Shown: positions 17,987-34,812, numbered from the stretch's first letter. The stretch is DNA of 64,000 nt from an uncultured Gammaproteobacteria bacterium (GCA_964404855.1 CAYOLO010000001.1:530736-594735), one strand, 5' to 3'. The notes: a model not told the origin generated them from the sequence alone. Numbers and translations: made by a program.

Positions 17987-17989
17987 GCC

Positions 17990-19659: not shown

Positions 19660-19699
19660 GACCAATACAAAATTAGACTGTTGTTTATTCCTTAAAAGT

Positions 19700-20726: not shown

Positions 20727-21296
20727 TTGATAAAGGTTATTATGTTTGATTGGTTTGGAGTGTTGTGCTCTAAGGTTTTTCAAGACTGGGTAGATCAAAA
20801 TACTTTGGATCCGGAGGGGCTTCGGAAGTTGCGGAATCTGGCCGATCAATTGGATTTAGGTCGAATCAGTCTGGATGCCTTTTATGATTCGATTGGTACA
20901 GTCGTAAACAAATCGGGTTCGCAATGCGGAACCGAGCTCTACTCGATGGTTCGAATCGATGGGGAAATGAGCGAGATAGTTAGGCAATTGCGTAAGCAAT
21001 ATGTCGTTTCTGTTTTGTCTAATATCCATGAAGAATTCTTGGCTAGACTTCTTTCTGATCACCCAGACATTAATCCCGATGTGGTTATGACCAGTTCAGA
21101 GCTTGGAGCTCTTAAACCAGATCCGCTGATTTTTGAGCGGGCATGTGAGAGGCTCCGGGTTAGTGCCGGCGACATTCTATTTGTTGACGATTCGGAGCTT
21201 AATGTCTCAGCAGCCAGACGAGTAGGATTGTTGGGCATCCTTTTTACTACTCCGTCTGAGTTAAGGGCTGAACTAAAAATTAAAGGAGTACTTTAG
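20727..21296 (+). CDS. HAD-superfamily hydrolase
   Basis: TTG start with SD AGGAGAAGGA. Motif I-like VIMFDWFGVL. ...FVDDSELNVSAARRVG motif IV region. Confidence 0.65.
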   Translation: MIKVIMFDWFGVLCSKVFQDWVDQNTLDPEGLRKLRNLADQLDLGRISLDAFYDSIGTVVNKSGSQCGTELYSMVRIDGEMSEIVRQLRKQYVVSVLSNIHEEFLARLLSDHPDINPDVVMTSSELGALKPDPLIFERACERLRVSAGDILFVDDSELNVSAARRVGLLGILFTTPSELRAELKIKGVL

Positions 21297-21315
21297 CAAA
21301 AAGATGACGAAGTTA

Positions 21316-21347
21316 AGGCGTCCACAAACAAGTGGGCGTCTTTTTTT
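21316..21347 (+). terminator. intrinsic terminator
   Basis: GGCGUCCAC...GUGGGCGUC hairpin followed by a T7 run. Confidence 0.55.
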
Positions 21348-21499
21348 AGCTTTTTTCTAATCCTTTTTAGAGAATAGCTTATAATTTTAAAATCACAATA
21401 TTATTGACAAACTATTCCAAGTATGCTAAATATGTTCCTCAAGAAGAAAGAAAGGATTGTTGGGACAGCTAGTCTAGTGACACGAAAGTGTCCAAAGGT

Positions 21500-21573
21500 G
21501 CAAGTGTGGTCCAATGGAAGGGTGTCGGTCTCCAAAACCGAAGATAGGGGTTCGATTCCCCTCACTTGTGCCA
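21500..21573 (+). tRNA. tRNA-Trp (anticodon CCA)
   Basis: Hand-folded cloverleaf. Acceptor GCAAGUG/CACUUGU. Anticodon loop CUCCAAA. T-arm AGGGG-UUCGAUU-CCCCU. Discriminator G. 3' CCA is encoded. Confidence 0.85.
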
Positions 21574-21650
21574 AAACACATAAGCGTTCGAGTCTGTCGA
21601 GCCAACAACGAAGCGGGAGTTATAGCAACTACCTATTTGACCTTCTGAGC

Positions 21651-21686
21651 GCCCAGTAGTTGATTTCAACTGCTGGGCATTTTTTT
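21651..21686 (+). terminator. intrinsic terminator between tRNA-Trp and trpS
   Basis: 12-bp stem GCCCAGUAGUUG/CAACUGCUGGGC with a 4-nt loop, followed by a U7 run. Confidence 0.7.
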
Positions 21687-21738
21687 AGCTCTTTAACACC
21701 ACCAACAACAAATTCAAAATTGCAAAGGACAAGGAAAG

Positions 21739-23271
21739 ATGATCAATCTAGGCGTGGAACCGATGCCGTTGGAGCTCGCTCGTTTAAGGCTAGATGGTCT
21801 TGACGGCGAGATTATTACGCTAGTCGCTGCTCGACTGAAAATGGTGCAGCGTGACAGCGTTTTTCTGCAGAAGCAGATACAAGATCTGGTTAATTTGGGC
21901 ATGAGCCCAGGTTTTGCAGAAGCCTATTATCGTCTTCTGACGGAAGAAGGATTGAGGTCTCAGTTCGAGACACAGGACGTTGGGCAACTGGACGAGGTTT
22001 TTCAGCTCAACGAAATCGACCGCCAGCTTCTGGCTTTGGTTGTGGAGAGGATGGATATTTCCATCGCTTTAACCAAGACCAAACTGAACAACAACATCGC
22101 CATCGTTCATCCTGAACGGGAAGAGGCAGTTCTTCAAGGTCGTGCAGAGAAAGCTCAGAATCTGGGAGTTAACGCTGACTTCACGAAACGTTTGTTCCGC
22201 CTCCTCATGGATGAGGGTGTGCGAATACAACGGGAAGTGTGGCAAACGTCAACCCTCAAAAAAAGGATTCTGACGGGAGTACGTCCAACTGGACCGCTGC
22301 ACCTTGGTCATTATGTCGGTGCTCTGAAAAGTTGGCTTGAGTTTCAAGAGACTTACGAGTGTCTTTTTCTCATCGCTGACTATCAGGCACTGGGAAGCCA
22401 CATCGATAAGCCGGAGCTGATCCGAGACTCTGTCTTCCAGGTCACACTTGACTGGTTGGCTGTCGGTCTCGATCCCAACGCGTCGTCGTTCTTTGTTCAG
22501 AGCTACATTCCGGAGCATGCTGAGCTTGCACTGCTGCTTAGTATGCTGATTCCCTGGAAACGGCATATTGGCAACCCGACACTCAAAAGCGAAATGGCAG
22601 ACATGGAGTCTGAACATAACGCCATGAGTCTCGGATTCGTCAATTATCCCGCTAGTCAAGCGGCCGATATTCTTCTAATGAAGGGCGATCTGGTCCCTGT
22701 AGGTGAGGATCAGCGTCCGCACATCGAGGAAACTCGGCGAGTGGCACGGGAATTCAATCGACGGTACGGCGAAAACCGTACTATCTTTCCAGTTCCGAGA
22801 ATTTACACTGGAGAAGTATCGCGATTGGTGGGTCTGGATGGTGATGCGAAGATGAGCAAAAGCAAGGGCAACACCATTGATTTGCGTGATGACCCTGAAA
22901 CAGTTCGAAAGGCCGTAATGCGGATGTTCACCGACTCAACCCGTCTCCGCGCGACCGATCCTGGTCACGTGGAGGGAAATCCAGTCTTCATCTACCACGA
23001 TATCTTCAATCCTGACGTGGATGAAGTTGCAGACTTGAAGGCGCGCTATGTTCTCGGCAAGGTCGGCGATGTTGAGGTGAAGGTCAAATTGGCTAAAGCC
23101 CTCAACCAGATGCTCGATCCTATCCGCGAGCGGCGTGCGTACTTCGAGGCGCATCCAACACAAGTAAAGGATGCGCTGATTGCAGGCACAGATCGGGCAA
23201 GGAAAATTGCCGAAGAAACAATGAGAGAGGTTCGCGAAGCGATGCGCATCACGCGCTACGCCGAAGGTTAA
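21739..23271 (+). CDS. trpS: tryptophanyl-tRNA synthetase with ~180-aa N-terminal extension (two AroQ chorismate-mutase-like helical repeats)
   Basis: C-terminal ~330 aa carries HIGH (TGPLHLGH) and KMSKS (KMSKSKGN) of class-I TrpRS. The N-terminus has LELARLRLDGLDGEIITLVAARLK and IDRQLLALVVERM...HPEREEAVL...RLFRLLMDEGVRIQRE. SD AAGGA. GC-rich. Confidence 0.8.
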   Translation: MINLGVEPMPLELARLRLDGLDGEIITLVAARLKMVQRDSVFLQKQIQDLVNLGMSPGFAEAYYRLLTEEGLRSQFETQDVGQLDEVFQLNEIDRQLLALVVERMDISIALTKTKLNNNIAIVHPEREEAVLQGRAEKAQNLGVNADFTKRLFRLLMDEGVRIQREVWQTSTLKKRILTGVRPTGPLHLGHYVGALKSWLEFQETYECLFLIADYQALGSHIDKPELIRDSVFQVTLDWLAVGLDPNASSFFVQSYIPEHAELALLLSMLIPWKRHIGNPTLKSEMADMESEHNAMSLGFVNYPASQAADILLMKGDLVPVGEDQRPHIEETRRVAREFNRRYGENRTIFPVPRIYTGEVSRLVGLDGDAKMSKSKGNTIDLRDDPETVRKAVMRMFTDSTRLRATDPGHVEGNPVFIYHDIFNPDVDEVADLKARYVLGKVGDVEVKVKLAKALNQMLDPIRERRAYFEAHPTQVKDALIAGTDRARKIAEETMREVREAMRITRYAEG

Positions 23272-23310
23272 CCCTGACTCAATCGCTCTAGGGCCACAAG
23301 TAGCAGTGAT

Positions 23311-24390
23311 GTGATTTTGTGGCCCTTTTTCTTGAAAGGAAAAACGGTGAAAAAATCCATAGGGGGATGGCTCAATTCAGTAGCGGTTTTGGCGGTAATA
23401 TCCGGATTCGCTGCCGGTATTTACAGCTTGTCTGACACCCATGTGGTTGTCAGGTATTTCACTGACTCGACAGACAAAACAATCGGGTCATTGATCTACG
23501 TCGTCGTCGGTTCTTGGATCGGCTGTCTCTTATTTTTGCCTCAAGGGCAATTTCTGGGGCGCTGGCTAAGCCGTGATCAATTCCAGGGATGGCAAAGGCC
23601 TCTCGGAAGGGATTGGTTGTATGTTTGTGGCGCTGGTTTTACCGGAGCCGGAGCAACCTTTTTCTATCTTTTAGGTTTGAGCCGCTATGGCCCATCGCGA
23701 GTAGTGGTACTTTCCTCTGCGGTGCTGGTCTTGCTGCTCATGCTTGATTTTGTTAGGAGGAGGATAGATCTGTCCATGACTTTTCCAGCCTCAATCGTTT
23801 TCTTGGGAATACTATTGTCGAGTATTAACTTCGAGGATGGTATCAAGATCTCGGTAGGGCTGATTCTAATCGTGCTGATTGCACATAACTTTCTGTACGT
23901 GATCTCTATTTGGTTTTTCCAGGCTGGATCACGACGAATGGACTCAATCAATTTCACCTTCTGGCGATTTCTGTCTTTCGCAGTCTTTGCCACAGTCTTT
24001 GTCGTAATTTGGGTCGTTGTCGCCGGTAAGGTTGGAATTTTCCAGGATGTTCTTTTTGGGGGATTTACCGGTGCGCTGCCCTTTATTCTTTTTACTATGA
24101 TCTTTGGGTTCCTTGAGGTTGTCTTAGAATCTCAAGCTCGAAGAGACGGTGGAAAGATGTCAATGGTGAGCTTTCTAAAGCAGAGTGCCATCATTCCGGC
24201 GATGTTTTTGACCTACCTGTTGAACTGGATCTGGGTGGGGTCCCTCGGTGACGTTGCAACTGATACTCAATCGGTTGTGATCAGAGTCGGTGCAGCAGCG
24301 ATTGTTCTCTTGGGACTTTACCTCTTGACCAGACGAAAGCTGGTTGAGGAGCAGGAAATAGAAAGCGAGGAGATATTAGTCGTCGTTTAG
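23311..24390 (+). CDS. 10-TM integral membrane protein, possible DMT/EamA-type transporter
   Basis: Hydrophobicity pattern of two 5-TM halves. GC-rich. 40 nt downstream of trpS. Confidence 0.45.
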   Translation: MILWPFFLKGKTVKKSIGGWLNSVAVLAVISGFAAGIYSLSDTHVVVRYFTDSTDKTIGSLIYVVVGSWIGCLLFLPQGQFLGRWLSRDQFQGWQRPLGRDWLYVCGAGFTGAGATFFYLLGLSRYGPSRVVVLSSAVLVLLLMLDFVRRRIDLSMTFPASIVFLGILLSSINFEDGIKISVGLILIVLIAHNFLYVISIWFFQAGSRRMDSINFTFWRFLSFAVFATVFVVIWVVVAGKVGIFQDVLFGGFTGALPFILFTMIFGFLEVVLESQARRDGGKMSMVSFLKQSAIIPAMFLTYLLNWIWVGSLGDVATDTQSVVIRVGAAAIVLLGLYLLTRRKLVEEQEIESEEILVVV

Positions 24391-24395
24391 TGTCT

Positions 24396-24425
24396 GGGGA
24401 ATGCATAAAGCATTCCCCTTTTTTT
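24396..24425 (+). terminator. intrinsic terminator
   Basis: GGGGAAUGC-AUAAA-GCAUUCCCC followed by a U7 run. Confidence 0.7.
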
Positions 24426-24492
24426 ATGAAAAAAAATAAATTTTGAAGTAAAATATGCAAAATAAACAAGGCTTGTTATTAAAAGTTGTAAT

Positions 24493-25230
24493 TTGAAATA
24501 TCTTCAGATGATTGTCGTTCAAAAACAAGATAAAAAAATTTCAGTATTCTCAACATATTCGACTGATAAAATAATTAAAGATGGTCGAGTAACCACAAAT
24601 ACTGGTGGGCCTCTATTTTTTATCGAAAAGGCTCTAGAAAATTGCAGCGTTCCGTATGTTTCGCACCATGGAGAGACAGTAAATGTTGAGATTAAGGTAA
24701 ATAAAGATGGAGAGGTTGGTCGTGTAATTGGTATACAAAATAAAACTAAAAAAGTGGAAGACTTAAATGCCAAATTTCTTCTGATATCAACAATTTTTAA
24801 TGAATGGAATCTGCAAAAAATCGGCAAATCGAAAGCTAAAATTTTTGTGGATATACAAGGGTTTGTTAGGGGTGTTAATAAATTTGGGGCTAAAGTAGTA
24901 TGGGAAGACAGTATCAAATACTCTAAGCAAGTATATTGTCTAAAAGGAACAGAGGAGGAAATGAATTATTTGCCTAAAAATGTTTATGAAGACCAAAAAA
25001 ATCGCTTACTTGTAATAACTAAAGGTAAAAAAGGGGTTGAATGGTATTTAAAAGGAAAAAAATATTTAGCACTGATACCAAGAGAAATAAAATCTCCAAA
25101 TGCTGTGGGGGCGGGAGATACTTTTTTTGGGTATTTTGTGGCAAATATTTACAAAGGCAAAGGAATAAAATTTTCGATAGATAATGCTATAAGTAAAACT
25201 TCAGAATTTTTGGAGTCGAAAAATTATTAA
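24493..25230 (+). CDS. PfkB-family carbohydrate kinase-like (short)
   Basis: C-terminal NAVGAGDTFFG (PfkB signature 2). 245 aa. Confidence 0.5.
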   Translation: MKYLQMIVVQKQDKKISVFSTYSTDKIIKDGRVTTNTGGPLFFIEKALENCSVPYVSHHGETVNVEIKVNKDGEVGRVIGIQNKTKKVEDLNAKFLLISTIFNEWNLQKIGKSKAKIFVDIQGFVRGVNKFGAKVVWEDSIKYSKQVYCLKGTEEEMNYLPKNVYEDQKNRLLVITKGKKGVEWYLKGKKYLALIPREIKSPNAVGAGDTFFGYFVANIYKGKGIKFSIDNAISKTSEFLESKNY

Positions 25231-25411
25231 CCTATATTAACTAGTTGCGGGACTAGTGTGACATATGAATTTTAATTTAAATTCATAGATTTTTGGCGTC
25301 AAATTATCGTAATCGAAGTTACGATAATTGCCAAAAAGAGCGAACCTTGCGGTTCTTGCTGGTCACAATATTTTCTGCGCTCGGCAATTTATTGCCAAGC
25401 ACAGATAAATG

Positions 25412-25482
25412 CTGCGGGACTAGGACTCGAACCTAGAAAATCGCCTTCAAAGGGCGGTGTGATACCATTTCACCATCCCGCA
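25412..25482 (-). tRNA. tRNA-Gln (anticodon UUG)
   Basis: The reverse complement folds as a cloverleaf with a U1:A72 pair, anticodon loop CUUUGAA and T-loop UUCGAGU. CCA is not encoded. Confidence 0.8.
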
Positions 25483-25552
25483 AAGGATGTTGGCTAAAAA
25501 ATAGCCTGCTGATTATATTTTATAAAACACTTTTTTCCAACCAATAGAACAA

Positions 25553-27628
25553 TTATTCATAACGCATTGCGTTAAGCGCAGAAATTTTGGTGGCACGACG
25601 AGCTGGGTAAATTCCGGTTACTACTCCGACAAGTAAGGATAAAATTACAATAAAGAACACAAAAGTTGTTGGGATAACAGCAATATCAATAAATCCAACA
25701 CCTTTTGAAATGGCAACAATCGAAATAATTACACTGAGCAATTTACCAATAGTAAATCCAAACATTACTCCTAATACTCCACCAAAAAACCCCATGATCA
25801 TTGATTCTGTAAGAAATAATTCCTTAACTTCTTTAGACTTCATTCCCATGGCTTTCATAAGCCCCACTTCTCTGGTTCTCTCGAGTAGTGAAACGGTTAA
25901 GGTGTTAAACATTCCTAATGCTGCCACAGCTAGCGCAACCATACCTAGTAAGGCAAGGACTGTGCGAACTGTGGCAAATAAGGAGTTAATTTGTTCAACA
26001 GTGTCAGCTACCGATCTAGTGTTAAAACCCATGGCTTCAATTTGTTTTCTAATCTTTGGTAAGACATTTTGGTTTTCGGCGACAATTTTTATTTGTGAGT
26101 AGTTTTCAATCCCCAGCGATCTTAGGTCAATAAAAGGAACGTAAAAAACTGGAGATTTTTCATCAGGTGTTACACCAACGATTGTGTAATCTGCAGGTAC
26201 AGACTCAATTTTTTCTGTCGCGTCTGCGAGCAGATTACCTACAACTACGAATGATGAAGAAAAAGTTTTACCAACCGCTTCAGTTTCGACGATACCTAAA
26301 ACTTTTAACATCGCTCTATTTACAACGGCTTGTCTTACTGCATTAGTACTTAGTGGTACTGTTTTGGTTTTTTGATTACTAAGGGCGGCTGCCTCTGAAG
26401 CAATAAGCGCAAGTTCTAAGTCTGCTGCACTGGTTGACTCGCTTGGTGATACGATTGTTGTTGTTGAAGCAGATGAAGTTGATTCACCCAGAACTTGACT
26501 AAGTGTAACTAGATCTGAGCCGAAGGTGCGAACATTAACTTGCGCAAAATAACCTTCTAGTTGTTTTTGTTTACCATTATCTTGTGTCACTATGTACTGA
26601 CCATCAATACAATCTGGATTTTTAGTGTCACAGATTTTCTTGTCCCAAACATAAACACTGGCTTTTATCCATTTGCCTAGCAATTGGCCGTTAGATTCTG
26701 TTCCGCTTGTCCCGTCTTTATTATCAGGGTAACTCCCTCCCCAAAAATATTGTCCTTTTTGATTACCTTCAACTCGTTTGGTGTATCCGATGATTGGGGA
26801 TGTTTTGTCTGGCTTGGATCTAACTTTGATCCAGATTGATGGTTCAATTTCAAAATCTATATCACCGATTAGTTGTCCAGATTTTGCAGAAGTTGTGTTG
26901 ACTCCAGCCACTTCAGGGCTTTGTTTTGGAAGACGACTGACAGGCTTACTTAAATCGTTACTCTCAAAGATTTTACCCTGAATGGGTTTGATAGCACTTT
27001 GACTTAAGTATTCACTGGTAACTCCGTAGACGGCCATATCTGAAATGGAGTTTTGAAAGTTAACTCTCCCGACGACTGCAATTTGGGGTAACACATCCTT
27101 AATATCATTGATAGATTTAAATTCCGTAATTGTCTTGTCGGTAATTTTAAGATTACTTCCTGATGCGACAGTTACATCAGCCTGTTTCATTTCTTCTAAT
27201 CTGGCGACTCTACCAACCACGAGATCTTGTACGCCGTATCCAAGTGAAACTAAAAATACAATTGCGCCTATACCAAGCGACATTCCCCCGACTGTGATTG
27301 TGGTTCGTGATCTTTTGACCCTCATGTTTCTGAGTGCCAGTTCAATCAACATTATTCTATTAATACTGTTACTGTCAGACTTGCGATGAAAACTTAGAAT
27401 TTTTCGATAAATTTTTGACAATGGGTTTCGAAATGCTCTTTCAATCGGTCTTGGAAAGAATCTAAATGATCCAATATGGTCCAGAATTAACCCAGAAATA
27501 TAGGTGACTAACAATATCGTGAATGTAATTGTTTCCCAAGTCCACACAACAAAAAAATAATGAACATAAAGCGGAAGATGTTTAATTATTTTTATAAAAA
27601 TTGATGGTCGAGGCAGGGGTAATCTCAT
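25553..27628 (-). CDS. ABC transporter permease, MacB/FtsX family, with enlarged extracytoplasmic domain
   Basis: N-terminal TM, ~420-aa extracytoplasmic region and a C-terminal FtsX 3-TM module ending ...GIYPARRATKISALNAMRYE. Start overlaps the ATPase stop (ATGA). Confidence 0.8.
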   Translation of the reverse strand: MRLPLPRPSIFIKIIKHLPLYVHYFFVVWTWETITFTILLVTYISGLILDHIGSFRFFPRPIERAFRNPLSKIYRKILSFHRKSDSNSINRIMLIELALRNMRVKRSRTTITVGGMSLGIGAIVFLVSLGYGVQDLVVGRVARLEEMKQADVTVASGSNLKITDKTITEFKSINDIKDVLPQIAVVGRVNFQNSISDMAVYGVTSEYLSQSAIKPIQGKIFESNDLSKPVSRLPKQSPEVAGVNTTSAKSGQLIGDIDFEIEPSIWIKVRSKPDKTSPIIGYTKRVEGNQKGQYFWGGSYPDNKDGTSGTESNGQLLGKWIKASVYVWDKKICDTKNPDCIDGQYIVTQDNGKQKQLEGYFAQVNVRTFGSDLVTLSQVLGESTSSASTTTIVSPSESTSAADLELALIASEAAALSNQKTKTVPLSTNAVRQAVVNRAMLKVLGIVETEAVGKTFSSSFVVVGNLLADATEKIESVPADYTIVGVTPDEKSPVFYVPFIDLRSLGIENYSQIKIVAENQNVLPKIRKQIEAMGFNTRSVADTVEQINSLFATVRTVLALLGMVALAVAALGMFNTLTVSLLERTREVGLMKAMGMKSKEVKELFLTESMIMGFFGGVLGVMFGFTIGKLLSVIISIVAISKGVGFIDIAVIPTTFVFFIVILSLLVGVVTGIYPARRATKISALNAMRYE

Positions 27629-28458
27629 GAGGTTGTCGTTGTTGCTGTTGGATTATTGTCTTTTGGTTTGGCTTGTTCTGGAAGATTAGTGACTGAATCC
27701 TTGTCGCGCAAAGAAACTTTTAGACGTTTGCTCTTAAGGCTGCCTCCCAGTTTGGATTTTTGGTCGCCGTGGAGTTTTTCTATTATTTGCCCATCGAGCA
27801 TACGAACGGCAGTTTTGGCAAATTTCATATATTCCAAGTCATGAGTGACCATAATAATAGTTTTACCTTGATTTTTGTTGACATCGTATAAAAGCTGCAT
27901 CATTTCTTGACCAGATTCGTAATCAAGATTGCCAGTAGGTTCGTCGGCGATAATAATTTTAGGGTCATTAATTAATGATCTGGCAAGAGCAATCCTTTGT
28001 TGTTGTCCGCTACTAAGTTCTGTGGGATAGTAGTCTGCCCAATCTTGCATTGAAACGCTTTTGAGCACCTCAACAGCTTTTTGATAGGCTTCTGCTTTTT
28101 CATGTCCTAGTAGCATTAGTGGAAATCCGACGTTTTCGGCAACTTTTAGTGATTTGATCCAGTTCGGCTGTTGATAAACCATACCAACAAGTTGTTTGCG
28201 TATTGTTGACCTGTCGTCTTCGGTCGTGGATGTATACATATCACTACCAGAGAACATGACTTTGCCTGTAGTTGGTGATTCAAGGCCGAGGATAATGTGA
28301 AGTAATGTTGATTTTCCACAGCCAGAGGGTCCAAAAATAATCATAAAATCGCCATCATCCACCTCCAAGGTTACGCTTTTTAATACTTGAACATCTTGCA
28401 TTCCAACCTTAAAAACTTTGACGATATCGGTAGCTGTAATAATTTTTTTGGTTTCCAT
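27625..28458 (-). CDS. ABC transporter ATP-binding protein (MacB/LolD-like)
   Basis: Walker A GPSGCGKST, signature LSSGQQQR, Walker B IIADEPT. Basic low-complexity C-terminal tail. Confidence 0.85.
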   Translation of the reverse strand: METKKIITATDIVKVFKVGMQDVQVLKSVTLEVDDGDFMIIFGPSGCGKSTLLHIILGLESPTTGKVMFSGSDMYTSTTEDDRSTIRKQLVGMVYQQPNWIKSLKVAENVGFPLMLLGHEKAEAYQKAVEVLKSVSMQDWADYYPTELSSGQQQRIALARSLINDPKIIIADEPTGNLDYESGQEMMQLLYDVNKNQGKTIIMVTHDLEYMKFAKTAVRMLDGQIIEKLHGDQKSKLGGSLKSKRLKVSLRDKDSVTNLPEQAKPKDNNPTATTTTS

Positions 28459-28460
28459 AT

Positions 28461-31400
28461 TTAGTTAGTTAGTCCTCCTAGGAATCCAAATATTTGACTA
28501 AGGTTGCTGATAACAAGATTTAGTGCGTTATCAGTTGCCTTGGGTGTGATTGTGACAGTGTCGATGGAATTACCAACATTAGCAGCTGAGTCTTTTGATA
28601 ATGCTCTTAAGTGATAAACCTTCGATGGTGATAATCCAGATATAACAACTAAATGGTTGGTTGTCCTTGAAGTGTCCTCTTGAGTTTTTTGAGAATATGT
28701 CGTGCCTGTTCCCTCACCAAATTCGACTTGGCTGGTTGATGCCTCATCGGTGTTCCAGCTGATAACAAGTTGGGCTGTCGCTTCTTGATTATTGTTGCCT
28801 GCCGTAGTTGACCCTTCAATGTTAAGTTCCGTAATTTGAGGTGCTCTGGTGTCTGTAGCAGTTGTGACCTTTTGAGGTTCAGAGACTGCTTCGTTGCCTG
28901 CTTTGTCTCTGCCTTTGACCAGAAGTGTGTAGTTGGTTTGAGGAAGCAGGTTTTTGATTATCATTTTGTGTTCTCCGGTAATTAAGGCTATGTTGATTTC
29001 GTCTTTGGCATCCGATGGGGAGTTTTCTGGATAGTAAGTGACGATAGATGAAGTATCAGTATTAGTAGACCATGTGACGAGCAAGGTCGATTGGGCTGTT
29101 CCATTGACTTGCTGTACTCTAACATTGGCAATTTTGGGTCTAGGAAGAGTTTCGAAACTGAGAATATTTCCTTCATATTCAGCTGACTCTGTGTCTAGGG
29201 TGTTAATCTTGTAAAAATACTTTGTACCGTCTTCTAGTTCTTCTAGCTCGGTATTGTAAGTGGTTGAAACAGTCGAAGTCGAAATTTCTTTCACTCCGCC
29301 AAATGCTGAGGTTTTGCCATAGTAAATTTTGGCTTTGCTTGCACCAGTAACCGTAAATTCCAGAATCGCAGAGGTAAGAGAGGAGGATTTTACTTTTGGA
29401 TCGGTAACCGTTGGAGCGGGTTCGGTGGTAAAAGTTTTTTCCGCACTAAATCCGGTATTTCCATCTTCGTCAGTCCACTTGGCTTTGTAGTAGTAAGTGG
29501 TACCTGGCGTTAGATTGGTGATATTGATTGTGTGAGCGGTCACTTGGGTTGAATTACTAGGTTCTTCAGAAAAATATGATCCAGATGCTGTTCCGTAGCT
29601 GACTTTGGAGTCGCTGGTTCTGTCCGTTGACCAGGTAATCGTTGCTTTTTTGGTAGTTACACTGGTACTGACTGGACCAGATGATAGCGCTGGGGCGTCG
29701 GTGAATTTGCCGGTTGGTATTAAATCAACGGCTGAAGTGTAAGCACCACAATTGCTAACACTGTCACAGGCTCTGACTTTGTAATAATGAGCTGCTTGCG
29801 TGAGTCCCGTGTCGACATAAGCAATACCAGATGTTGTGGCGATTTCAGTATAGGTAACATCGTCAGTTGAGTGAAAAATTTCGTAATTTTCAATCCCAGA
29901 TCCAACATCGCTTGGAGCTTCCCAGCTGATTGCAAGTTTCCAAGAGCTTGTGCTTTTGACAGAAACGTCTGCAATATCAATGTTACCTGGAATGCCTGGT
30001 GCTGAAGTGTTGGCGGTAAAAGTTACAGAAGCATAAACTCCGTAGTTAATGACACCTCCAAGGTCTTCGGGATTTTTTGCAGAAACATAAAACGTATTTA
30101 ATCCTTGTTGTGTGGCAAACGAGTCAGCGGAAAGAGACGTTGCCCCTGCACTGGTGAAGGTACAAGAATTTTCTGATGGTAGCGTGTTGACTGTATAGCA
30201 ATATGTCAGGTCGGATGCGCTACCTGAGTAGCTACTTGGTGCCTGCCATGAGAAGCCAAAAGAGTTGGTGGTGTTGGTCGATGGGGTGGCGGTAAGCAAC
30301 TGAGGAGCTGAAGGTCCTTCGCCTGCGAAATAATAGTTGACGGTTACACAAGCGCTGGCGGTATTGCCCGCATTATCGACGGTTCTTAGGTAGAAAATAT
30401 TTGCACTGCTTCCTTCGAGGTATGCTGCATCAGGAATGTTGACGGAGTTGGAGGTAGTAGAGGTCCATCCGGAAACACTGCTGCAGTTGGCGCTACTTGC
30501 GCCGGTTTGATATTGGTAACCAAACGATCCGCCGCTTAGTCCGGAGTGTGCGTCACTTGCTCCGCCTTCGGCGCCGGCGGCTGCCCAAGAGAATGTAAAG
30601 TCATTGGTTGTTGCGAATCCTGCTGGATTGACCGATACAAGCGATGGGTTGGTTGGAGATGTGGAGTCGTATTTATATATGAAGGCAGCGTAAATACTTG
30701 AGGTGTTGCCAGCATTATCTGCAGATTTGATTCTCAGGTAGTATGTGGTTCCGCTACTCATTCCACTTGCTGTATAAGTTGTGCCTGCTTGAAAACTGCC
30801 AGCAGTTTGAGGATCAGCGGTATTGTCGGTTCCGTAATATACGTAATATCCGGAAACACCAGATCCGCCGGTGTCTGTTGCGCCACTCCAACTAAAGTAA
30901 GGACCTGTGTGTTTGTACCAAGTGTTAGTTGTAATTGAGGACCCACCTGATTGGTTGAGTGCCGTTAGTGTGTCGGGTGGTGTTGGCGCTGTGCTATCGG
31001 CTGTGGCGGTAAGAGTGACCGAATTAAGGGTAACTAGTTGATTGCCGTTTCCGTCTAGTACGCCTTGCCAGACAAAACCTCCTGTGCTTACTGGAAATGT
31101 GGAGATATTGGTGTTAATCACAGCTGCTGTATTTGTTTGACTTGTTGAGTTACTGGTAACCCATCCCGAGTTGTAATATTTCCAAGTTGATCCGTTGTCG
31201 TTACTAAGTCTGTAGGTGATTGTGCCTCCGTTTGTAGTTTCGTCTGCAGTAAATCCATCCCAAGAAAGAATTCCAGAAGTTCCATAAGCTGTAGTTGGTT
31301 TGACTGTTTGAGCTGAAGCGGTATATGGGGTGGTATTGAACTCGGTTCTTCTGATATTGCTGATTCTGACTTCGTCGATTCGGCCGTCAAGAAAACCCTG

Positions 31401-34400
31401 ACCAATCCCAGTTTCGTTGCCGCCAAACTTCGTACCAATTAATACTGGATGTGCTGTATCAAGAAGTGTTAAAGATGTTGATAAAGAATTATCAAGCACC
31501 CCGTCGATATACAATCGCATTGTTGTTCCGTCGTATGTAGCTGCAATGTGATGCCAGTTAGTATCCTGAGAAGATGTTGTTGATTGCAAAACAGAGTTGT
31601 TTCCGTAAGCCCAAATAGTGGCATCTGCGTTTGCGGTGTCGCCAAGACCTGCATAAAGCTTGCCTTTATAAACTGACATAGAGGCTACACTTTCATTGAC
31701 TGTGGCCCAACCATTATTGAGGCTATCTCCACCGACTTTAACCCAGCTTGAATCATTCCAGCGCCAGACTTCACCATCACCAGCGGTTAAACCTAAGCCG
31801 GCATATAGATCGCCATTGTAAACAGTTAAATTACGGACTCTTTCGTATGTTGCAGCTGTCCAACTATTATTAAGCCCATCGCCACCGACTTGTGTCCAAA
31901 TTCCACTTGAGGTAGTGTATTTCCAAACTTCTGCGTCGTCAGCGGTAAGGCCAAGTCCAACATATAATCCACCATTGTAGGGGACTAATTGTTCAATTCT
32001 TTCATAAACAGTGTTCCAACTGGAGTTAAGGCCGTCGCCACCCATTTTGGTCCAGCCACTAGTTACTGTGCAACTCCCAATTGTACAGGTCCAAACTTCA
32101 GCATCGCCGGCTGTTATACCGAGACCAACATATAAACTATTTCCATAGACTGCCATACTAATAACTTGTTCAAAACCAGCTGCCCAGCTTTGTCCGCCGG
32201 TGCCTGTGCCATCTCCTCCAATTTTGGCCCAAGTGTCAGCTGTGCCATCGTATGCCCAAACTTCGGCTTCTCCGGCGGTGTCGCCAAGACCAGCAATTAG
32301 TTTGTCGCCGGCAACAGCCAGGGATCGGACATTGTCATAGTTAGTTGTCCAGCCTAACTTAAGACTGTCTCCGCCGATTTGAGACCAGACTGTACCGTTC
32401 CATTTCCAAACTTCGGCTTCGTTGGCTGATAATCCTAAAGCAACATACAGATCTCCGCGATAATCGATCATATGGTTAACGATTTCGTAGGTGTTAGCTG
32501 CCCAGCTAGAGTTGAGACCTTGCCCGCCAATCCTTGTCCAGCTTGTACCGTCATATCGCCAAACTAAAGCATTACCTGCTGTACTTAATCCAGTGCCAGC
32601 ATATAAATAGCTACCGGAAATTGTCATTGTTTCAACACTTTGCAGGTTGGTATAACCCCAAGAGTTGTTGATATAGTTACCACCGATTCTGTTCCATATT
32701 GAACCATTGAATCGCCAAACTTCACCGGATGTGGCTGTACCCTGAAGTCCGACATAAACGTTACTATCAAAAACAGTGATTGTTCTGATATTGGTGTGAG
32801 TGTTGGTAAAACCAAGAGCAGTTCCGTCGCCAGTTCCGTCACCACCGATTTTTGCCCAGGTTGTACAAGTTGCAGCAGTACAACTCCAAACTTCGTTGTC
32901 TCCAGCCGTATTACCTAATCCAGCATAAAGCGTTGATCCTGAAATTGTCACCGTCCAGACTTGTTCATAGGTTGTGTCTGCCCAACTAGAGTTAGTTCCG
33001 TCACCACCGATTTTTGTCCAGGTGGTACAACTACTTGTAGTGTCGCATCTCCAAACTTCGGCTTCTCCGGCGGCACTGTTTCCAATACCTGCAAAAAGAT
33101 AAGTCCCATCATTAGCAAGAGAAGTAACAATTTCATAAGTTGCGTCTGCCCAACTAGAGTTAATCGCATCTCCGCCTATTCTGGTCCAAGTTGAACCTCC
33201 CCATCGCCAAACTTCAGCATCGCCAGCACTATCTCCCAATCCAATGTGTAATGTGGTGCCAACGACCGTCATACTCCTGACGGCTTCGAAGTTGGTGTTC
33301 CAGCCTGAGTTCAGGTTGTCTCCGCCGATTTTTGTCCAACCAGATGTAACAGTACAGCTGCCGATTGTACAGCTCCAAACTTCGGCATCGTTTGCGCTTG
33401 ATCCTAGACCGGCGTAGAGTGTGGTCCCTGAAACGGCTAAAGCAGAAACATATTCGTATGTATTAGTTGCCCAGCTTTGGCCAGCTGATCCGCTTCCATC
33501 TCCACCGATTTTTGTCCAGGTTGAGCCGTTGTATTGCCAAACTTCACCTTCCCCTGCAGTAAGTCCTAGTCCAACAAAAAGGTTAGTTCCGTCAGTTGCC
33601 ATAGCATAAACTTCGTCATAGGTGGCATTGGTCCAGCTAGAGTTGATTCCATCTCCGCCAATCATGGACCAGACTGTACCATCCCACATCCAGACTTCTG
33701 CATCAGACTGCCCATTACCTAATCCAACATACAAGTCACCACTAATTTCGACTGATGATTCCACAATTAATTTACCGTTAAGATCCCAGCTTGCACTGCC
33801 GTTCATTTCGGTTCCAGTTGATATTCCGCCAGCCACCTGTGTCCAGCTGTCAGCATTACTTGGTGCTAATTCGTAGGTAAGTTTACCTTGAACTCTATCG
33901 TAGTAGAGCTGGTACTCGCCTTTATCGATAATGCCTTGGCGCTGTTGATTTGAGTTAGCGGAATATGCAGTATCCAGCTTGACCCAGGCTTCGAGGGTGT
34001 GAGACTGTGACAAAGATAGTGAGGTTGAGTCAGATACTGAGACATTACTTAGTGCCCCATTAAATTCGATTGAGTTATTGAGGTTCCCAGTAGTGTATGT
34101 TGCATTACTTGCTGTGGCTGCATTGGCATTTGAACTAGAATCGACAGGATTGCCAGAACTTTCATCAAAGTGAAAAAGAGCGGCAGTATTTGCGTCTGAG
34201 GCGTAGTTTTGGACTGCAAGTTTGGCACTATTGCCGGAAACGGTGATCATATTAGAGTCAGAAAGAGTGTAATCTCCCCCAACTGAAAAATCCCATTCTT
34301 GAGTAAGATCAGAGGCAAAAATTTTAGGAATAATTGTGTTGAGAGTTGTGTAAGCTCCAAATCCAAAACCAATACCAATACAAATTACTCCAAAAAGGTT

Positions 34401-34598
34401 GAACTGCCATTTGGCAATCGTAATTTTTTTCGTAAACAGAGTCTTGATTGTTTGAGGGTTTTTATTGATAACTGCGTTGCCAAGTTTTGGGATTAGGAAG
34501 AATGTTTTTGAAAAATGGTTTTTGGTACTAATTTTGAGGCCAAAAGTTTTGGACTGGGCTGGTTTATTTTTAATGTGGTTTATCGAGTCGTTAGTCAT
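28461..34598 (-). CDS. giant (2045 aa) signal-anchored cell-surface protein with LamG-like domains, a tandem-repeat array and FN3 domains
   Basis: TM at aa ~67-89. ConA/LamG_3-like region (ALFHFDE...TLEAWVKLD...QGIIDKG). ~14 tandem repeats of VW.W.G..W..IGGDG.NSSW...YE.V......LY.GLG.TAGDAE. Second LamG-like segment (...RLYIDGVLDNS...FLDGRIDEVRISN). At least 6 FN3-like modules. Confidence 0.8.
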   Translation of the reverse strand: MTNDSINHIKNKPAQSKTFGLKISTKNHFSKTFFLIPKLGNAVINKNPQTIKTLFTKKITIAKWQFNLFGVICIGIGFGFGAYTTLNTIIPKIFASDLTQEWDFSVGGDYTLSDSNMITVSGNSAKLAVQNYASDANTAALFHFDESSGNPVDSSSNANAATASNATYTTGNLNNSIEFNGALSNVSVSDSTSLSLSQSHTLEAWVKLDTAYSANSNQQRQGIIDKGEYQLYYDRVQGKLTYELAPSNADSWTQVAGGISTGTEMNGSASWDLNGKLIVESSVEISGDLYVGLGNGQSDAEVWMWDGTVWSMIGGDGINSSWTNATYDEVYAMATDGTNLFVGLGLTAGEGEVWQYNGSTWTKIGGDGSGSAGQSWATNTYEYVSALAVSGTTLYAGLGSSANDAEVWSCTIGSCTVTSGWTKIGGDNLNSGWNTNFEAVRSMTVVGTTLHIGLGDSAGDAEVWRWGGSTWTRIGGDAINSSWADATYEIVTSLANDGTYLFAGIGNSAAGEAEVWRCDTTSSCTTWTKIGGDGTNSSWADTTYEQVWTVTISGSTLYAGLGNTAGDNEVWSCTAATCTTWAKIGGDGTGDGTALGFTNTHTNIRTITVFDSNVYVGLQGTATSGEVWRFNGSIWNRIGGNYINNSWGYTNLQSVETMTISGSYLYAGTGLSTAGNALVWRYDGTSWTRIGGQGLNSSWAANTYEIVNHMIDYRGDLYVALGLSANEAEVWKWNGTVWSQIGGDSLKLGWTTNYDNVRSLAVAGDKLIAGLGDTAGEAEVWAYDGTADTWAKIGGDGTGTGGQSWAAGFEQVISMAVYGNSLYVGLGITAGDAEVWTCTIGSCTVTSGWTKMGGDGLNSSWNTVYERIEQLVPYNGGLYVGLGLTADDAEVWKYTTSSGIWTQVGGDGLNNSWTAATYERVRNLTVYNGDLYAGLGLTAGDGEVWRWNDSSWVKVGGDSLNNGWATVNESVASMSVYKGKLYAGLGDTANADATIWAYGNNSVLQSTTSSQDTNWHHIAATYDGTTMRLYIDGVLDNSLSTSLTLLDTAHPVLIGTKFGGNETGIGQGFLDGRIDEVRISNIRRTEFNTTPYTASAQTVKPTTAYGTSGILSWDGFTADETTNGGTITYRLSNDNGSTWKYYNSGWVTSNSTSQTNTAAVINTNISTFPVSTGGFVWQGVLDGNGNQLVTLNSVTLTATADSTAPTPPDTLTALNQSGGSSITTNTWYKHTGPYFSWSGATDTGGSGVSGYYVYYGTDNTADPQTAGSFQAGTTYTASGMSSGTTYYLRIKSADNAGNTSSIYAAFIYKYDSTSPTNPSLVSVNPAGFATTNDFTFSWAAAGAEGGASDAHSGLSGGSFGYQYQTGASSANCSSVSGWTSTTSNSVNIPDAAYLEGSSANIFYLRTVDNAGNTASACVTVNYYFAGEGPSAPQLLTATPSTNTTNSFGFSWQAPSSYSGSASDLTYCYTVNTLPSENSCTFTSAGATSLSADSFATQQGLNTFYVSAKNPEDLGGVINYGVYASVTFTANTSAPGIPGNIDIADVSVKSTSSWKLAISWEAPSDVGSGIENYEIFHSTDDVTYTEIATTSGIAYVDTGLTQAAHYYKVRACDSVSNCGAYTSAVDLIPTGKFTDAPALSSGPVSTSVTTKKATITWSTDRTSDSKVSYGTASGSYFSEEPSNSTQVTAHTINITNLTPGTTYYYKAKWTDEDGNTGFSAEKTFTTEPAPTVTDPKVKSSSLTSAILEFTVTGASKAKIYYGKTSAFGGVKEISTSTVSTTYNTELEELEDGTKYFYKINTLDTESAEYEGNILSFETLPRPKIANVRVQQVNGTAQSTLLVTWSTNTDTSSIVTYYPENSPSDAKDEINIALITGEHKMIIKNLLPQTNYTLLVKGRDKAGNEAVSEPQKVTTATDTRAPQITELNIEGSTTAGNNNQEATAQLVISWNTDEASTSQVEFGEGTGTTYSQKTQEDTSRTTNHLVVISGLSPSKVYHLRALSKDSAANVGNSIDTVTITPKATDNALNLVISNLSQIFGFLGGLTN
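31570..33850 (-). repeat. tandem coding repeats (~156 nt / 52 aa, about 14 copies) inside the giant gene
   Basis: Periodic protein motif VW(R/K)W.G..W..IGGD..NSSW....YE.V......LY.GLG.TAGDAE read from the translation. Coordinates are approximate. Confidence 0.6.
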
Positions 34599-34812
34599 AA
34601 AGTCAACCCAATAAGATTTGGGCAGATTTAATGTAGGAAATGTTAAAAAAATACAAAGAAGCCCAACACAACCCTACATAATTGTGTCGAGAAATCTACG
34701 CAAAACTCTATCTCCATTATATATACTCGTCCTAGCTGATGTCTATGTTATTCCAATAATTTAAAGATATTTTTGTATTACTTGTAATTAATTTTGTTAG
34801 TATTTAAAAGTT

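What the first reader, a model, noticed from the sequence alone, without database searches (positions are those of the whole stretch)
25553..28463. MacB/FtsX-type ABC transporter translationally coupled to the giant surface protein gene
The giant gene's stop (28461-63) lies 2 nt from the ATPase start (28458). ATPase and permease overlap in ATGA (27625-28). Together this is a tight 3-gene operon. The permease has an unusually large extracytoplasmic domain (~420 aa, with a Ser/Thr-rich linker and a Cys-containing insert) and an extra N-terminal TM. In FtsEX- or MacB-like systems the extracytoplasmic domain transmits ATP-driven motion to an external partner. The coupling suggests the transporter either assists export and maturation of the giant protein or mechanically regulates it.
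Basis: inference. Interest (0 to 1): 0.5.

Follow-up and report, generated by a model that had tools for sequence, protein, structure and literature searches.

The report
Giant surface protein with dedicated ABC
In this uncultivated ultra-small (CPR/Patescibacteria) bacterium, the gene for a 2045-residue surface protein with a fast-evolving outer end is followed directly by a MacB-type ABC transporter, and the same trio stays together in about 130 related loci, which points to a previously undescribed ATP-driven machine that holds or works the giant protein on the cell surface.

Summary
On the minus strand, the giant gene (28461-34598) stops 2 nt before the ABC ATPase gene (27625-28458), and the ATPase overlaps the permease gene (25553-27628) in ATGA. 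The permease is a MacB/LolCE-like type VII ABC permease, not FtsX proper. Its roughly 400-residue outer domain carries an inserted SH3b-like, cell-wall-binding-type fold with an invariant Cys pair, and this insert marks the family. Of 65 species-level loci found through the permease, 64 carry a homolog of the giant upstream. Of 72 loci found through the giant's C-terminus, about 69 carry the ABC pair downstream. The gaps are typically -4 to +8 nt. The giant is modular: a Sec-type signal with a conserved cleavage-like motif, a hypervariable head, a conserved fn3 stalk and a near-invariant amphipathic C-terminal tail. In relatives the head is a true DGR target, and a T4SS-like cluster sometimes follows the trio. 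Best reading: a dedicated mechanotransmission ABC that anchors or actuates the conserved base of a variable adhesin-like fibre. The module is shown; the mechanism is inferred. The claimed extra N-terminal TM is probably a helix that does not span the membrane. I found no published description.

The parts
34716..34745 (-). Best sigma-70-like promoter match (TAGACA-18-TATAAT, 11 of 12), 118 nt upstream of the giant gene's ATG. It is the putative operon promoter.
   Evidence: This is a consensus match only. The total number of promoter-like sites in the region equals the shuffle expectation.
28461..34598 (-). Giant surface protein gene, 2045 aa.
   Evidence: Pfam finds Laminin_G_3, fn3 and Pur_ac_phosph_N-type fn3 domains. 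There is one hydrophobic segment at the N-terminus (residues 68-86) and none at the C-terminus.
34314..34436 (-). Conserved N-terminal export/anchor module (residues 55-95). It contains the juxtamembrane motif ITIAKWQFNL, a hydrophobic helix at 68-86, and then P-K-I-F-A95|S96, which fits a signal-peptidase-I site.
   Evidence: The motif [KR][WF]QFNL + TM + P-x-[IV]-F-A recurs in giants of distant loci. 57% of homologs align here although the following ~1000 residues do not. Cleavage is inferred from the -3/-1 rule, not shown.
31299..34313 (-). Variable head (residues 96-1100). It is one LamG (concanavalin-like) domain split by about 700 residues of 12-13 repeats of about 53 aa each ('...GGDG..NSSW....AEVW'), probably propeller-like.
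   Evidence: searches show Laminin_G_3 in two stretches and EVW every ~53 aa. Only 32% of homologs share this head. It is 49-64% identical to the closest relative, against 90-95% for the rest of the protein and 83-98% for flanking orthologs.
28539..31298 (-). Conserved stalk (residues 1101-2020), an array of fn3 / Pur_ac_phosph_N-type domains. Conservation rises towards the C-terminus.
   Evidence: At least 96% of homologs align from residue ~1200 on. Column conservation is 0.5-0.6 for residues 1200-1640 and 0.7-0.86 for residues 1646-2020.
28464..28538 (-). Near-invariant C-terminal tail (residues 2021-2045: ATDNALNLVISNLSQIFGFLGGLTN). It is an amphipathic helix that ends in GFLGG. It has no TM segment and I saw no LPXTG-like motif in it.
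   Evidence: one search shows the tail is almost identical in about 50 loci whose permeases are only ~50% identical. One search places its hydrophobic moment in the 99th percentile of the protein.
28456..28463 (-). Giant-ATPase junction: TAA, 2 nt, ATG. A GGAGG lies at 28478-28474.
   Evidence: The gap is conserved: median 4 nt, and 35 of 52 loci fall within -4..+10.
27625..28458 (-). ABC ATPase (277 aa) with all catalytic motifs and a 45-residue low-complexity C-terminal extension.
   Evidence: The closest curated models are LolD, FtsE, DevA and MacB-NBD, all below their cut-offs. It is fused to the permease in some relatives.
27625..27628 (-). ATGA overlap of the ATPase stop and the permease start.
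   Evidence: The same 4-nt overlap occurs in 16 of 51 relatives and the median gap is -4.
25553..27628 (-). MacB-type (type VII ABC) permease, 691 aa. TM1 is at about 109-141 and TM2-TM4 at about 541-681.
   Evidence: The AF2 model has pLDDT 78. Foldseek probability is 1.0 to MacB (5gko), LolE/LolC (9rld), Spr0695 (5xu1), YtrF (9o9x), HrtB and YbbP.
27470..27577 (-). N-terminal hydrophobic helix of the permease (residues 18-53).
26009..27205 (-). Extracytoplasmic domain (residues about 142-540): a MacB periplasmic core split by an insertion.
   Evidence: (MacB_PCD matches residues 109-227 and again about 452-548).
26519..26893 (-). SH3b-like insert (residues 246-370) with invariant W266, W320, W328, C333 and C340.
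26375..26518 (-). Ser/Thr-rich, low-confidence linker (residues 371-418) after the SH3b-like insert.

Best explanation
The three genes form one inherited functional module of Microgenomates-type CPR bacteria.

(1) The giant protein is exported by Sec through its own N-terminal signal, which is probably cut after A95. The mature protein then has the hypervariable ligand-binding head at its free N-terminal (distal) end. Here the head is a split LamG with a repeat insertion; in relatives it is a DGR-diversified C-type-lectin fold. Behind the head come a conserved fn3 stalk and a near-invariant amphipathic tail at the cell-proximal C-terminus.

(2) The ATPase and permease form a homodimeric type VII (MacB-like) ABC machine. 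Machines of this kind do not carry substrates across the membrane. They pass ATP-driven movements to their large outer domain.

(3) This machine is the giant's dedicated base. Its outer domain, braced on the cell wall by the SH3b-like insert, binds the conserved C-terminal stalk or tail. It thereby retains and positions the fibre and uses ATP to change the fibre's state (extend, tension or release).

Shown: gene anatomy, family and fold, two-way conserved synteny, the modular conservation pattern, and DGR targeting of the head in relatives. Inferred: signal cleavage, orientation of the fibre, physical contact with the permease, wall binding by the SH3b-like domain, and what ATP hydrolysis achieves.
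For: Conserved linkage in both directions: 64 of 65 and about 69 of 72 loci, with conserved tight spacing.

Genomes with two giants have two cognate ABC pairs, for example L009 and L032 about 20 kb apart on one contig. This argues for one-to-one partnership.

The linkage persists whatever the head is (LamG/repeat, DGR-targeted CLec, or the short ~1055-aa class). It also persists where the special N-terminal motif is replaced by an ordinary signal peptide. The invariant partner determinant is therefore the C-terminal stalk and tail, which is the most conserved part of the giant.

The giant has no C-terminal TM segment, and I saw no LPXTG or other recognisable wall anchor, so it needs a partner to stay attached if the signal is cleaved.

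The permease is MacB/LolCE-like by Pfam and fold. The ATPase is catalytically intact.

The outer domain is as conserved as the TM core, with 54% mean column identity and many invariant residues. It carries a family-specific SH3b-like insert.

The head evolves fast: 49-64% identity against a ~92% genome baseline. In relatives it is a bona fide DGR target, since TR/VR pairs differ only at TR adenines. This fits a distal recognition surface.

One clade gained a second SH3b-like insert together with a small membrane-anchored protein that resembles the giant's terminal fn3-type domains. This is seen in 12 of 14 such loci against 0 of 119 others. It hints at an SH3b-fn3 pairing, but is probably a single evolutionary event.
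Against: No direct evidence of contact exists. The MI/APC covariation between the giant's last 130 residues and the permease outer domain was no higher than the ATPase control, with an effective sequence number (Neff) of about 82. No complex could be modelled with the tools.

SH3b domains usually bind peptidoglycan, so the insert may have nothing to do with the giant.

Translational coupling is not obligatory. 10 loci have extra genes between the giant and the ABC pair (a two-component system, a small ORF), 2 have the giant on the opposite strand, and one permease paralog (L073) has no giant homolog upstream.

Signal cleavage is predicted only from a motif. If the N-terminal helix stays uncleaved, the head would be membrane-proximal and the conserved end distal.
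Confidence: 0.45

Rival explanations
1. Lol-like extraction and release. The ABC pair pulls a membrane-embedded segment of the giant out of the bilayer and hands the protein to the wall or the outside. The segment would be either the N-terminal signal-anchor helix with its conserved KWQFNL motif or the C-terminal amphipathic tail. This would be a maturation or release step rather than a permanent anchor.
For: LolE and LolC are among the best structural matches and LolD is the best curated ATPase match. The giant has a conserved juxtamembrane motif plus helix at the N-terminus and an amphipathic tail, both of which could sit in a lateral groove of the permease.
Against: The N-terminal motif is absent from about 40% of the linked giants, which have ordinary signal peptides. 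There is a single permease gene rather than a LolC/LolE pair, and scores are far below the Lol cut-offs. No acceptor protein is evident in the operon.
Confidence: 0.2
2. FtsEX-like wall remodelling. The ABC machine, docked on peptidoglycan by its SH3b-like domain, activates a wall hydrolase. This opens the wall so that the giant fibre, and in relatives the neighbouring T4SS-like apparatus, can pass. The giant is a beneficiary, not a ligand.
For: The SH3b-like fold matches wall-binding domains of lysins. In several relatives an M23 peptidase gene lies in the T4SS-like cluster directly after the permease. From established knowledge, FtsEX-type systems are known to control M23-like or EnvC partners.
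Against: No hydrolase gene is in or next to the trio in this window or in most loci. The invariable neighbour is the giant, not a hydrolase. The permease has a MacB core outer domain and fails all FtsX models.
Confidence: 0.12
3. Ordinary efflux or resistance pump ('ABC-type antimicrobial peptide transport system', as one source names homologs). It is only co-regulated with the surface protein, or it exports a small molecule or lipid needed at the surface.
For: Source annotations of homologs. Many Gram-positive MacB-type pairs confer peptide resistance (established knowledge).
Against: Two-way, near-obligatory linkage with conserved tight spacing over deep divergence is not expected for mere co-regulation. 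Duplicate giants come with duplicate pumps. The family-specific outer-domain insert is highly conserved.
Confidence: 0.1
4. Chance adjacency or annotation artefact, with no functional relation.
For: Short gaps and ATGA overlaps are common in compact genomes.
Against: (conservation in about 130 loci). All three ORFs have strong homologs.
Confidence: 0.02

Closest known systems
MacB of the MacAB-TolC pump (E. coli, Acinetobacter, Aggregatibacter; PDB 5gko, 5lil, 5nik)
   Same: It shares the type VII ABC fold: a 4-TM FtsX-type domain, a MacB periplasmic core between TM1 and TM2, and a LolD/MacB-like ATPase. It is the best Foldseek hit. Some relatives have the ATPase fused N-terminally as in MacB.
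   Different: There is no MacA adaptor or outer-membrane channel, and the organism is a monoderm-type CPR bacterium. The outer domain is about twice as large and carries an SH3b-like insert. The obligate partner is a giant surface protein. The MacB equivalog score is 68 against a cut-off of 966.
LolCDE lipoprotein extractor
   Same: The fold matches (LolE is rank 2). LolD is the best curated ATPase match. Both act on a membrane-tethered extracytoplasmic protein.
   Different: There is a single permease (a homodimer) instead of LolC plus LolE. The Lol cut-offs are not reached, and no LolA-type partner gene was seen next to the trio among the neighbours annotated. The partner is not a lipoprotein.
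FtsEX with EnvC, PcsB, CwlO or RipC
   Same: The working principle is shared: ATP-driven movement passed through the outer domain to an extracytoplasmic partner protein.
   Different: The outer domain is the MacB core type, not the FtsX type. All FtsX and FtsE models fall below their cut-offs and FtsX structures match only the TM part. The partner is a 2045-aa fn3 fibre, not a hydrolase activator.
Gram-positive MacB-like pairs Spr0694-0695 (S. pneumoniae, 5xu1), YknYZ and YtrEF (B. subtilis, 5f9q, 9o9x)
   Same: All are MacB-type transporters of bacteria that lack an outer membrane, encoded as separate ATPase and permease genes, and they are close in fold.
   Different: Those systems have small outer domains with no SH3b-like insert, and to my knowledge are not linked to a giant surface protein.
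DGR variable proteins (for example Bordetella phage Mtd, Treponema TvpA, Legionella LdtA) and the 'CPR set' of DGRs
   Same: Orthologs of the giant in relatives are true DGR targets. They have the avd-TR-RT-target order, adenine-specific TR/VR differences, and a VR at the end of an FGE-sulfatase/CLec fold.
   Different: The window's own giant has no DGR and a different head. The VR lies about 1180 residues before the C-terminus rather than at it. Published surveys describe CPR targets as lacking recognisable domains or context (PMC8144416, PMC5758913).
Modular giant adhesins with ligand-binding domains projecting from split domains (RTX adhesins), and PrgB-type adhesins of Gram-positive conjugation loci
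   Same: They share the long repetitive stalk plus a distal binding module inserted in a split beta-sandwich (concept cited in PMC13059738, ref. 39). In some relatives the giant sits next to a monoderm-type T4SS cluster (PMC12102498).
   Different: There is no RTX repeat, no C-terminal T1SS signal, no HlyB-type ABC, and I saw no LPXTG in the C-terminal tail. Export is by an N-terminal Sec-type signal and the ABC is type VII.

Membership tests
Type VII (MacB/FtsX-superfamily) ABC transporter | Permease with an FtsX-type C-terminal TM domain (PF02687) | tested here: met
   63.8 bits against a cut-off of 25.5, residues 561-683.
Type VII (MacB/FtsX-superfamily) ABC transporter | Large extracytoplasmic MacB core domain (PF12704) between TM1 and TM2, with a 4-TM core | tested here: met
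   MacB_PCD scores 51.3 bits against 27 and is split by an insertion. TM1 is at about 109-141 and TM2-4 at about 541-681.
Type VII (MacB/FtsX-superfamily) ABC transporter | Overall fold like solved MacB/LolCE structures | tested here: met
   Foldseek E 4e-18 to 1e-12 and probability 1.0 to 5gko, 9rld, 5xu1, 5lil, 5nik, 9o9x.
Type VII (MacB/FtsX-superfamily) ABC transporter | Cognate cytoplasmic ABC ATPase with intact catalytic motifs | tested here: met
MacAB-TolC tripartite efflux pump | Adjacent membrane-fusion (MacA/HlyD-type) adaptor and an outer-membrane channel | tested here: not met
   The neighbours are tRNA-Gln, a PfkB-like gene, an MFS transporter and BipA. No adaptor appears in 79 related loci (labels, Pfam lists).
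MacAB-TolC tripartite efflux pump | Reaches the curated MacB equivalog score | tested here: not met
   NF007826 scores 67.8 bits (permease) and 176 bits (ATPase) against a cut-off of 966.
LolCDE | Reaches the LolC/E and LolD equivalog scores, with two different permease subunits | tested here: not met
   TIGR02212 scores 67.1 against 362 and TIGR02211 scores 211.9 against 307.75. The operon has a single permease gene.
FtsEX cell-division/hydrolase-control system | Reaches the FtsX and FtsE model scores | tested here: not met
   FtsX_Gpos scores 35.5 against 225 and FtsE TIGR02673 scores 186.8 against 264.85. In one search, FtsX structures align only over about 180-200 columns (the TM part).
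FtsEX cell-division/hydrolase-control system | The outer domain binds and regulates an extracytoplasmic partner protein | not testable with these tools
   This needs complex modelling or biochemistry. The covariation attempt was uninformative.
SH3b cell-wall-binding domain | SH3b fold | tested here: met
SH3b cell-wall-binding domain | Sequence membership in a curated SH3b family, and peptidoglycan binding | tested here: not met
   no Pfam family even at E<=10. Ligand binding cannot be tested here.
DGR target (variable protein) | Nearby RT (plus Avd) and a TR/VR pair with adenine-specific differences | tested here: not met
   For the window, no ORF matched the relatives' RT or Avd by BLASTP at E<=1e-4 within 64 kb. 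It is met for the orthologs in L004 and L006.
T1SS-secreted RTX/Lap-type giant adhesin with dedicated ABC | C-terminal secretion signal, HlyB-type ABC exporter, MFP | tested here: not met
   The giant has an N-terminal Sec-type signal/anchor, the ABC is type VII, and there is no MFP.

The most novel reading that the evidence does not exclude
The trio is a new kind of surface appendage: a MacB-type ABC motor, braced on the cell wall through an SH3b-like domain, forms the powered base of a giant fibre. The fibre's distal recognition head is continually re-invented, by DGR hypermutation in many lineages and by rapid divergence here. ATP hydrolysis extends, tensions or releases the fibre during attachment to host or partner cells. 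In some lineages the module works together with the adjacent T4SS-like apparatus as one host-contact and exchange island.
Probability: 0.2. Interest if true: 0.85.

Novelty: new variant of a known kind. Interest (0 to 1): 0.62.

Why it matters
CPR/Patescibacteria are thought to live attached to other cells, but for Microgenomates-type lineages the attachment machinery is unknown.

DGR surveys report that CPR target proteins have no recognisable domains or context (PMC8144416, PMC5758913). This module gives one class of those targets a defined architecture and a conserved ATP-driven partner.

For ABC transporter biology, it would add a new client type, a giant fn3 fibre, and a new outer-domain module, an SH3b-like insert, to the mechanotransmission (type VII) family in bacteria that lack an outer membrane.

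The near-invariant tail and the conserved outer domain are concrete, testable interaction candidates. They can be tested by heterologous expression even though the organisms are uncultivated.

Tried and rejected
(1) Covariation (MI with APC, 97 paired sequences, Neff ~82) between the giant's last 130 residues and permease regions. The distributions for the outer-domain core, the SH3b insert, the TM part and the ATPase control were indistinguishable. This result is uninformative, neither for nor against contact.

(2) Correlation between the giant's N-terminal KWQFNL motif and the permease's N-terminal helix. The helix is present everywhere regardless of the motif, so there is no support for pairing.

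(3) Pfam search of the outer-domain insert, the N-terminal extension and the distal core. Only the second half of MacB_PCD was found. The insert had to be identified by fold.

(4) PADLOC gave only generic ABC/AAA similarity, so this is not a known defence system.

(5) Rfam over the whole window gave only the six tRNAs and no leader RNA upstream of the giant. The hairpin at 34691-34662 in the 5' leader is unexplained.

(6) A phmmer search of the PDB with the giant gave only a marginal fn3 hit.

(7) Literature. Nine full-text searches and six papers read in part (PMC12102498, PMC5758913, PMC8144416, PMC11809585, PMC13059738, PMC11665869) gave no description of this trio. Paul et al. 2017 (PMC5436926), the main study of CPR DGRs, is not held, so prior mention there cannot be excluded.

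(8) tRNA-Gln directly downstream of the permease is shared only with the closest relative and is not part of the module.

(9) Complex modelling was not possible.

Full report
**Observation.** The giant gene (28461-34598, 2045 aa) ends with TAA at 28463-28461. Two bases later the ATPase gene starts at ATG 28458, with a GGAGG at 28478-28474. The ATPase stop and the permease start share ATGA at 27628-27625.

The ATPase (277 aa) has Walker A, signature, Walker B with the catalytic Glu, and H-loop. Its best curated matches are LolD, FtsE, DevA and the MacB NBD, and none reaches its cut-off. The permease (691 aa) passes the Pfam thresholds for FtsX and MacB_PCD.

The best promoter-like site in 24.5-36 kb lies 118 nt upstream of the giant's ATG, at 34745-34716. 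No terminator-like site lies at either gene junction. These are consensus scans only.

Flanking genes are ordinary chromosomal ones. Upstream on the other strand are an MFS transporter and BipA. Downstream are tRNA-Gln, a PfkB-like gene and TrpRS. Composition (about 33% GC) and all homologs place the window in the CPR/Patescibacteria, near the Microgenomates-type groups.

**The permease.** An AlphaFold2 model built on 55 homologs (pLDDT 78) matches solved MacB, LolE/LolC, Spr0695, YtrF, HrtB and YbbP with Foldseek probability 1.0. FtsX matches only over the TM part. It is therefore a type VII, MacB-like permease and not FtsX proper. All FtsX, Lol and MacB equivalog models are far below their cut-offs.

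The outer domain spans about residues 142-540. The MacB core is split by an all-beta insert (about 246-370) followed by a Ser/Thr-rich disordered linker (371-418). The insert holds the only two cysteines, C333 and C340. These are invariant together with W266, W320 and W328.

A search of 1.84 billion cluster representatives found the insert in only 105 proteins. Nearly all are 600-1000 aa long with the match at the same position, so the insert is a signature of this permease family.

This is a real hydrophobic helix (residues about 24-52). Its hydropathy is TM-like in 43 of 54 homologs. However, it carries net positive charge on both sides. In natural ATPase-permease fusions (P0080, P0107, P0115 and several loci) it lies between the cytoplasmic ATPase domain and the cytoplasmic segment before TM1, with no second hydrophobic segment to bring the chain back. 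It therefore most probably does not span the membrane. From my own knowledge, MacB has an interfacial element in the equivalent place.

**Synteny, the decisive test.** The permease has hundreds of full-length relatives at 50-60% identity. I fetched 79 loci from species-representative genomes and labelled their ORFs by BLAST against the window proteins.
- 65 non-redundant loci had at least 3.5 kb upstream of the permease.
- 64 of these carry a homolog of the giant's C-terminal half upstream.
- 52 have the giant directly adjacent to the ATPase or to a fused ATPase-permease.
- 10 have other genes or a displaced ATPase in between.
- 2 have the giant on the opposite strand.
- 1 paralog (L073) has no giant homolog upstream.
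- The giant-ATPase gap has a median of 4 nt, and 35 of 52 fall between -4 and +10.
- The ATPase-permease gap has a median of -4 nt.

I then ran the reciprocal test, starting from the giant's last 200 residues in metagenome contigs. Of 72 loci with enough downstream sequence, 49 have the ATPase directly next. About 20 more have one small ORF and then the ATPase and permease. Only three loci are true exceptions.

Several genomes hold two giants, each with its own ABC pair. An example is L009 and L032, about 20 kb apart on one contig.

The linkage is near-obligatory over a divergence at which the permeases are only about 50% identical.

**The giant is modular, and the modules evolve very differently.** Only one hydrophobic segment exists (residues 68-86). 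It is preceded by a conserved motif (ITIAKWQFNL; FHFSRFQFNL in relatives) and followed at a fixed distance by P-x-[IV]-F-A, here A95|S96, which fits the -3/-1 rule of signal peptidase I. Cleavage is inferred.

Residues 96-1100 form the head. It is one LamG domain split by about 700 residues made of 12-13 repeats of about 53 aa. Only a third of the homologs share this head.

Against the closest relative (L001) the identities are as follows:

| Protein or region | Identity to L001 |
|---|---|
| Flanking orthologs | 83-98% |
| ATPase | 94% |
| Permease | 91% |
| Giant, residues 1-1100 | 49-64% |
| Giant, residues 1101-2045 | 90-95% |

From residue about 1200 on, at least 96% of homologs align. 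Conservation climbs towards the C-terminus (0.7-0.86 over the last four fn3-type domains). The final 25 residues (ATDNALNLVISNLSQIFGFLGG..) are almost identical in some 50 loci. This tail is strongly amphipathic, in the 99th percentile of the protein. It contains no TM segment, and I saw no LPXTG-like motif.

**Context in relatives.** In 17 of the 65 loci, an Avd gene and a reverse transcriptase gene lie just upstream of the giant. In L004 and L006 a 116-118-nt template repeat between avd and the RT matches a region inside the giant (residues about 408-446, at the end of an FGE-sulfatase/C-type-lectin fold). Every mismatch falls at a template adenine. This is the hallmark of a diversity-generating retroelement.

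The head is therefore a programmed hypervariable surface in many lineages. In the window's lineage it is a naturally fast-evolving one. No ORF in the 64-kb window matched the relatives' RT by BLASTP.

In at least 7 loci a monoderm-type T4SS-like cluster directly follows the permease: TrbC/VirB2-like, TrbL/VirB6-like, VirB4 and an M23 peptidase. The recent survey of patescibacterial T4SS does not mention this ABC or the giant (PMC12102498).

One clade has two SH3b-like inserts in the permease. In 12 of its 14 loci, a small membrane-anchored protein resembling the giant's terminal fn3-type domains sits between the giant and the ATPase. It occurs in none of 119 single-insert loci. This is suggestive of an SH3b-fn3 pairing but is probably a single evolutionary event. 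Another clade has a CHASE4-PAS histidine kinase and a receiver inserted at the same place.

**Mechanism.** Type VII ABC machines have no transmembrane substrate path. They pass ATP-driven motion to their outer domain (established knowledge for MacB, LolCDE and FtsEX). The giant has its own Sec-type signal, so the ABC pair is not its translocator.

The trio persists whatever the head is, and it persists when the special N-terminal motif is replaced by an ordinary signal peptide. The constant feature that co-occurs with the ABC pair is therefore the conserved C-terminal stalk and tail.

If the signal is cleaved, that tail is the only candidate for keeping a 200-kDa fibre on the cell, because I found no other recognisable anchor.

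I therefore favour a model in which the homodimeric ABC machine, braced on the wall by its SH3b-like insert, binds the base of the fibre and uses ATP to position, tension or release it (confidence about 0.45). That the three genes form one functional module I hold at about 0.9.

The rivals are:
- Lol-like extraction or release of a membrane-embedded end of the giant (0.2).
- FtsEX-like control of a wall hydrolase to let the fibre pass (0.12).
- An unrelated efflux function with co-regulation (0.1).
- Chance adjacency (0.02).

A covariation test between the tail and the outer domain gave no signal above the ATPase control. Complex modelling was not available.

**Comparison and novelty.** By fold and Pfam the ABC pair is a member of the MacB/type VII superfamily. 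It fails the membership tests for MacAB-TolC (no adaptor, no channel, score), for LolCDE (single permease, scores) and for FtsEX (scores, type of outer domain).

It works most like FtsEX or LolCDE in principle, acting on an extracytoplasmic protein. Its client (a giant fn3 fibre with a hypervariable, often DGR-targeted head) and its SH3b-like insert have, as far as I could find, not been described.

DGR surveys state that CPR targets lack recognisable domains or context (PMC8144416, PMC5758913). The main CPR DGR paper (Paul et al. 2017) could not be read, so prior mention there cannot be excluded.

I rate this a new variant of a known kind. It is of good interest to CPR biology, to type VII ABC transporters and to DGR biology.

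Noticed in passing
L004 2215-9231 (TR 2622-2737, VR 5583-5698); L006 2579-9253 (TR 2996-3113, VR 5709-5826): Relatives carry a complete DGR (avd, template repeat, reverse transcriptase) directly upstream of the giant's ortholog. The variable repeat lies inside the giant's N-terminal C-type-lectin-like domain, and all TR/VR mismatches are at template adenines. 17 of 65 loci have an RT upstream.
   Followed up: yes
L004 12160-18767; L006 12340-18894; L029 (inverted): A T4SS-like cluster (TrbC/VirB2-like, TrbL/VirB6-like, TraC-like, VirB4, M23 peptidase) directly follows the permease in at least 7 related loci. Replic_Relax, DUF2958 and Fic genes lie upstream in some. No ORF in the 64-kb window matched the relatives' VirB4 by BLASTP.
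   Followed up: partly
L125, L133, L137, L145, L147, L148, L150, L153, L154, L159, L163, L082 (e.g. L133 6594-6983): One clade has permeases of 817-872 aa with two SH3b-like inserts. It also has a small (~130 aa) membrane-anchored protein between the giant and the ATPase. An HMM built from these small proteins also matches the giants' C-terminal fn3-type domains, although Pfam finds no family in the one tested. It is present in 12 of 14 double-insert loci and 0 of 119 single-insert loci.
   Followed up: partly
L016, L045 (6142-8667), L053, L074: In one clade a CHASE4-PAS-HisKA-HATPase sensor kinase and a single-domain response-regulator receiver are inserted between the giant gene and the ABC pair. 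Pfam was run on the L045 pair only.
   Followed up: partly
L009 and L032 (contig JBAYIT010000002.1, ~20 kb apart); also L010/L073, L048/L076, L066/L086: Some genomes carry two copies of the permease family. In L009/L032 each copy has its own giant and ATPase, one copy with a DGR and one without.
   Followed up: partly
window 17762-25552: About 7.8 kb present here is absent from the otherwise collinear close relative L001, where DsbB follows the permease and tRNA-Gln. The region holds tRNA-Trp, a TrpRS fused to a chorismate-mutase domain (21739-23271), a PfkB-like gene and unknown ORFs. Its GC content is 0.40-0.50 against about 0.33 elsewhere, so it is a possible insertion.
   Followed up: partly
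window 12458-13630 (-): This 390-aa protein of unknown function is only 69% identical to its ortholog in L001, against 83-98% for neighbouring orthologs. It is a second fast-evolving gene.
   Followed up: no
window 48529-52626 (+): A 1365-aa fusion protein with GT2 and GT4 glycosyltransferase domains heads a long plus-strand gene row, possibly a cell-envelope glycan locus.
   Followed up: no
window 34662-34691 (-): A 12-bp hairpin followed by a T-rich run lies in the 5' leader between the promoter-like site and the giant's start codon. There is no Rfam match and its function is unknown.
   Followed up: partly
window 39655-41373 (-) and 41888-42826 (-): A DUF2207 membrane protein and a D-Ala-D-Ala carboxypeptidase (Peptidase_S11) lie nearby. 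The latter indicates that the organism makes peptidoglycan, which is relevant to the SH3b-like domain.
   Followed up: no
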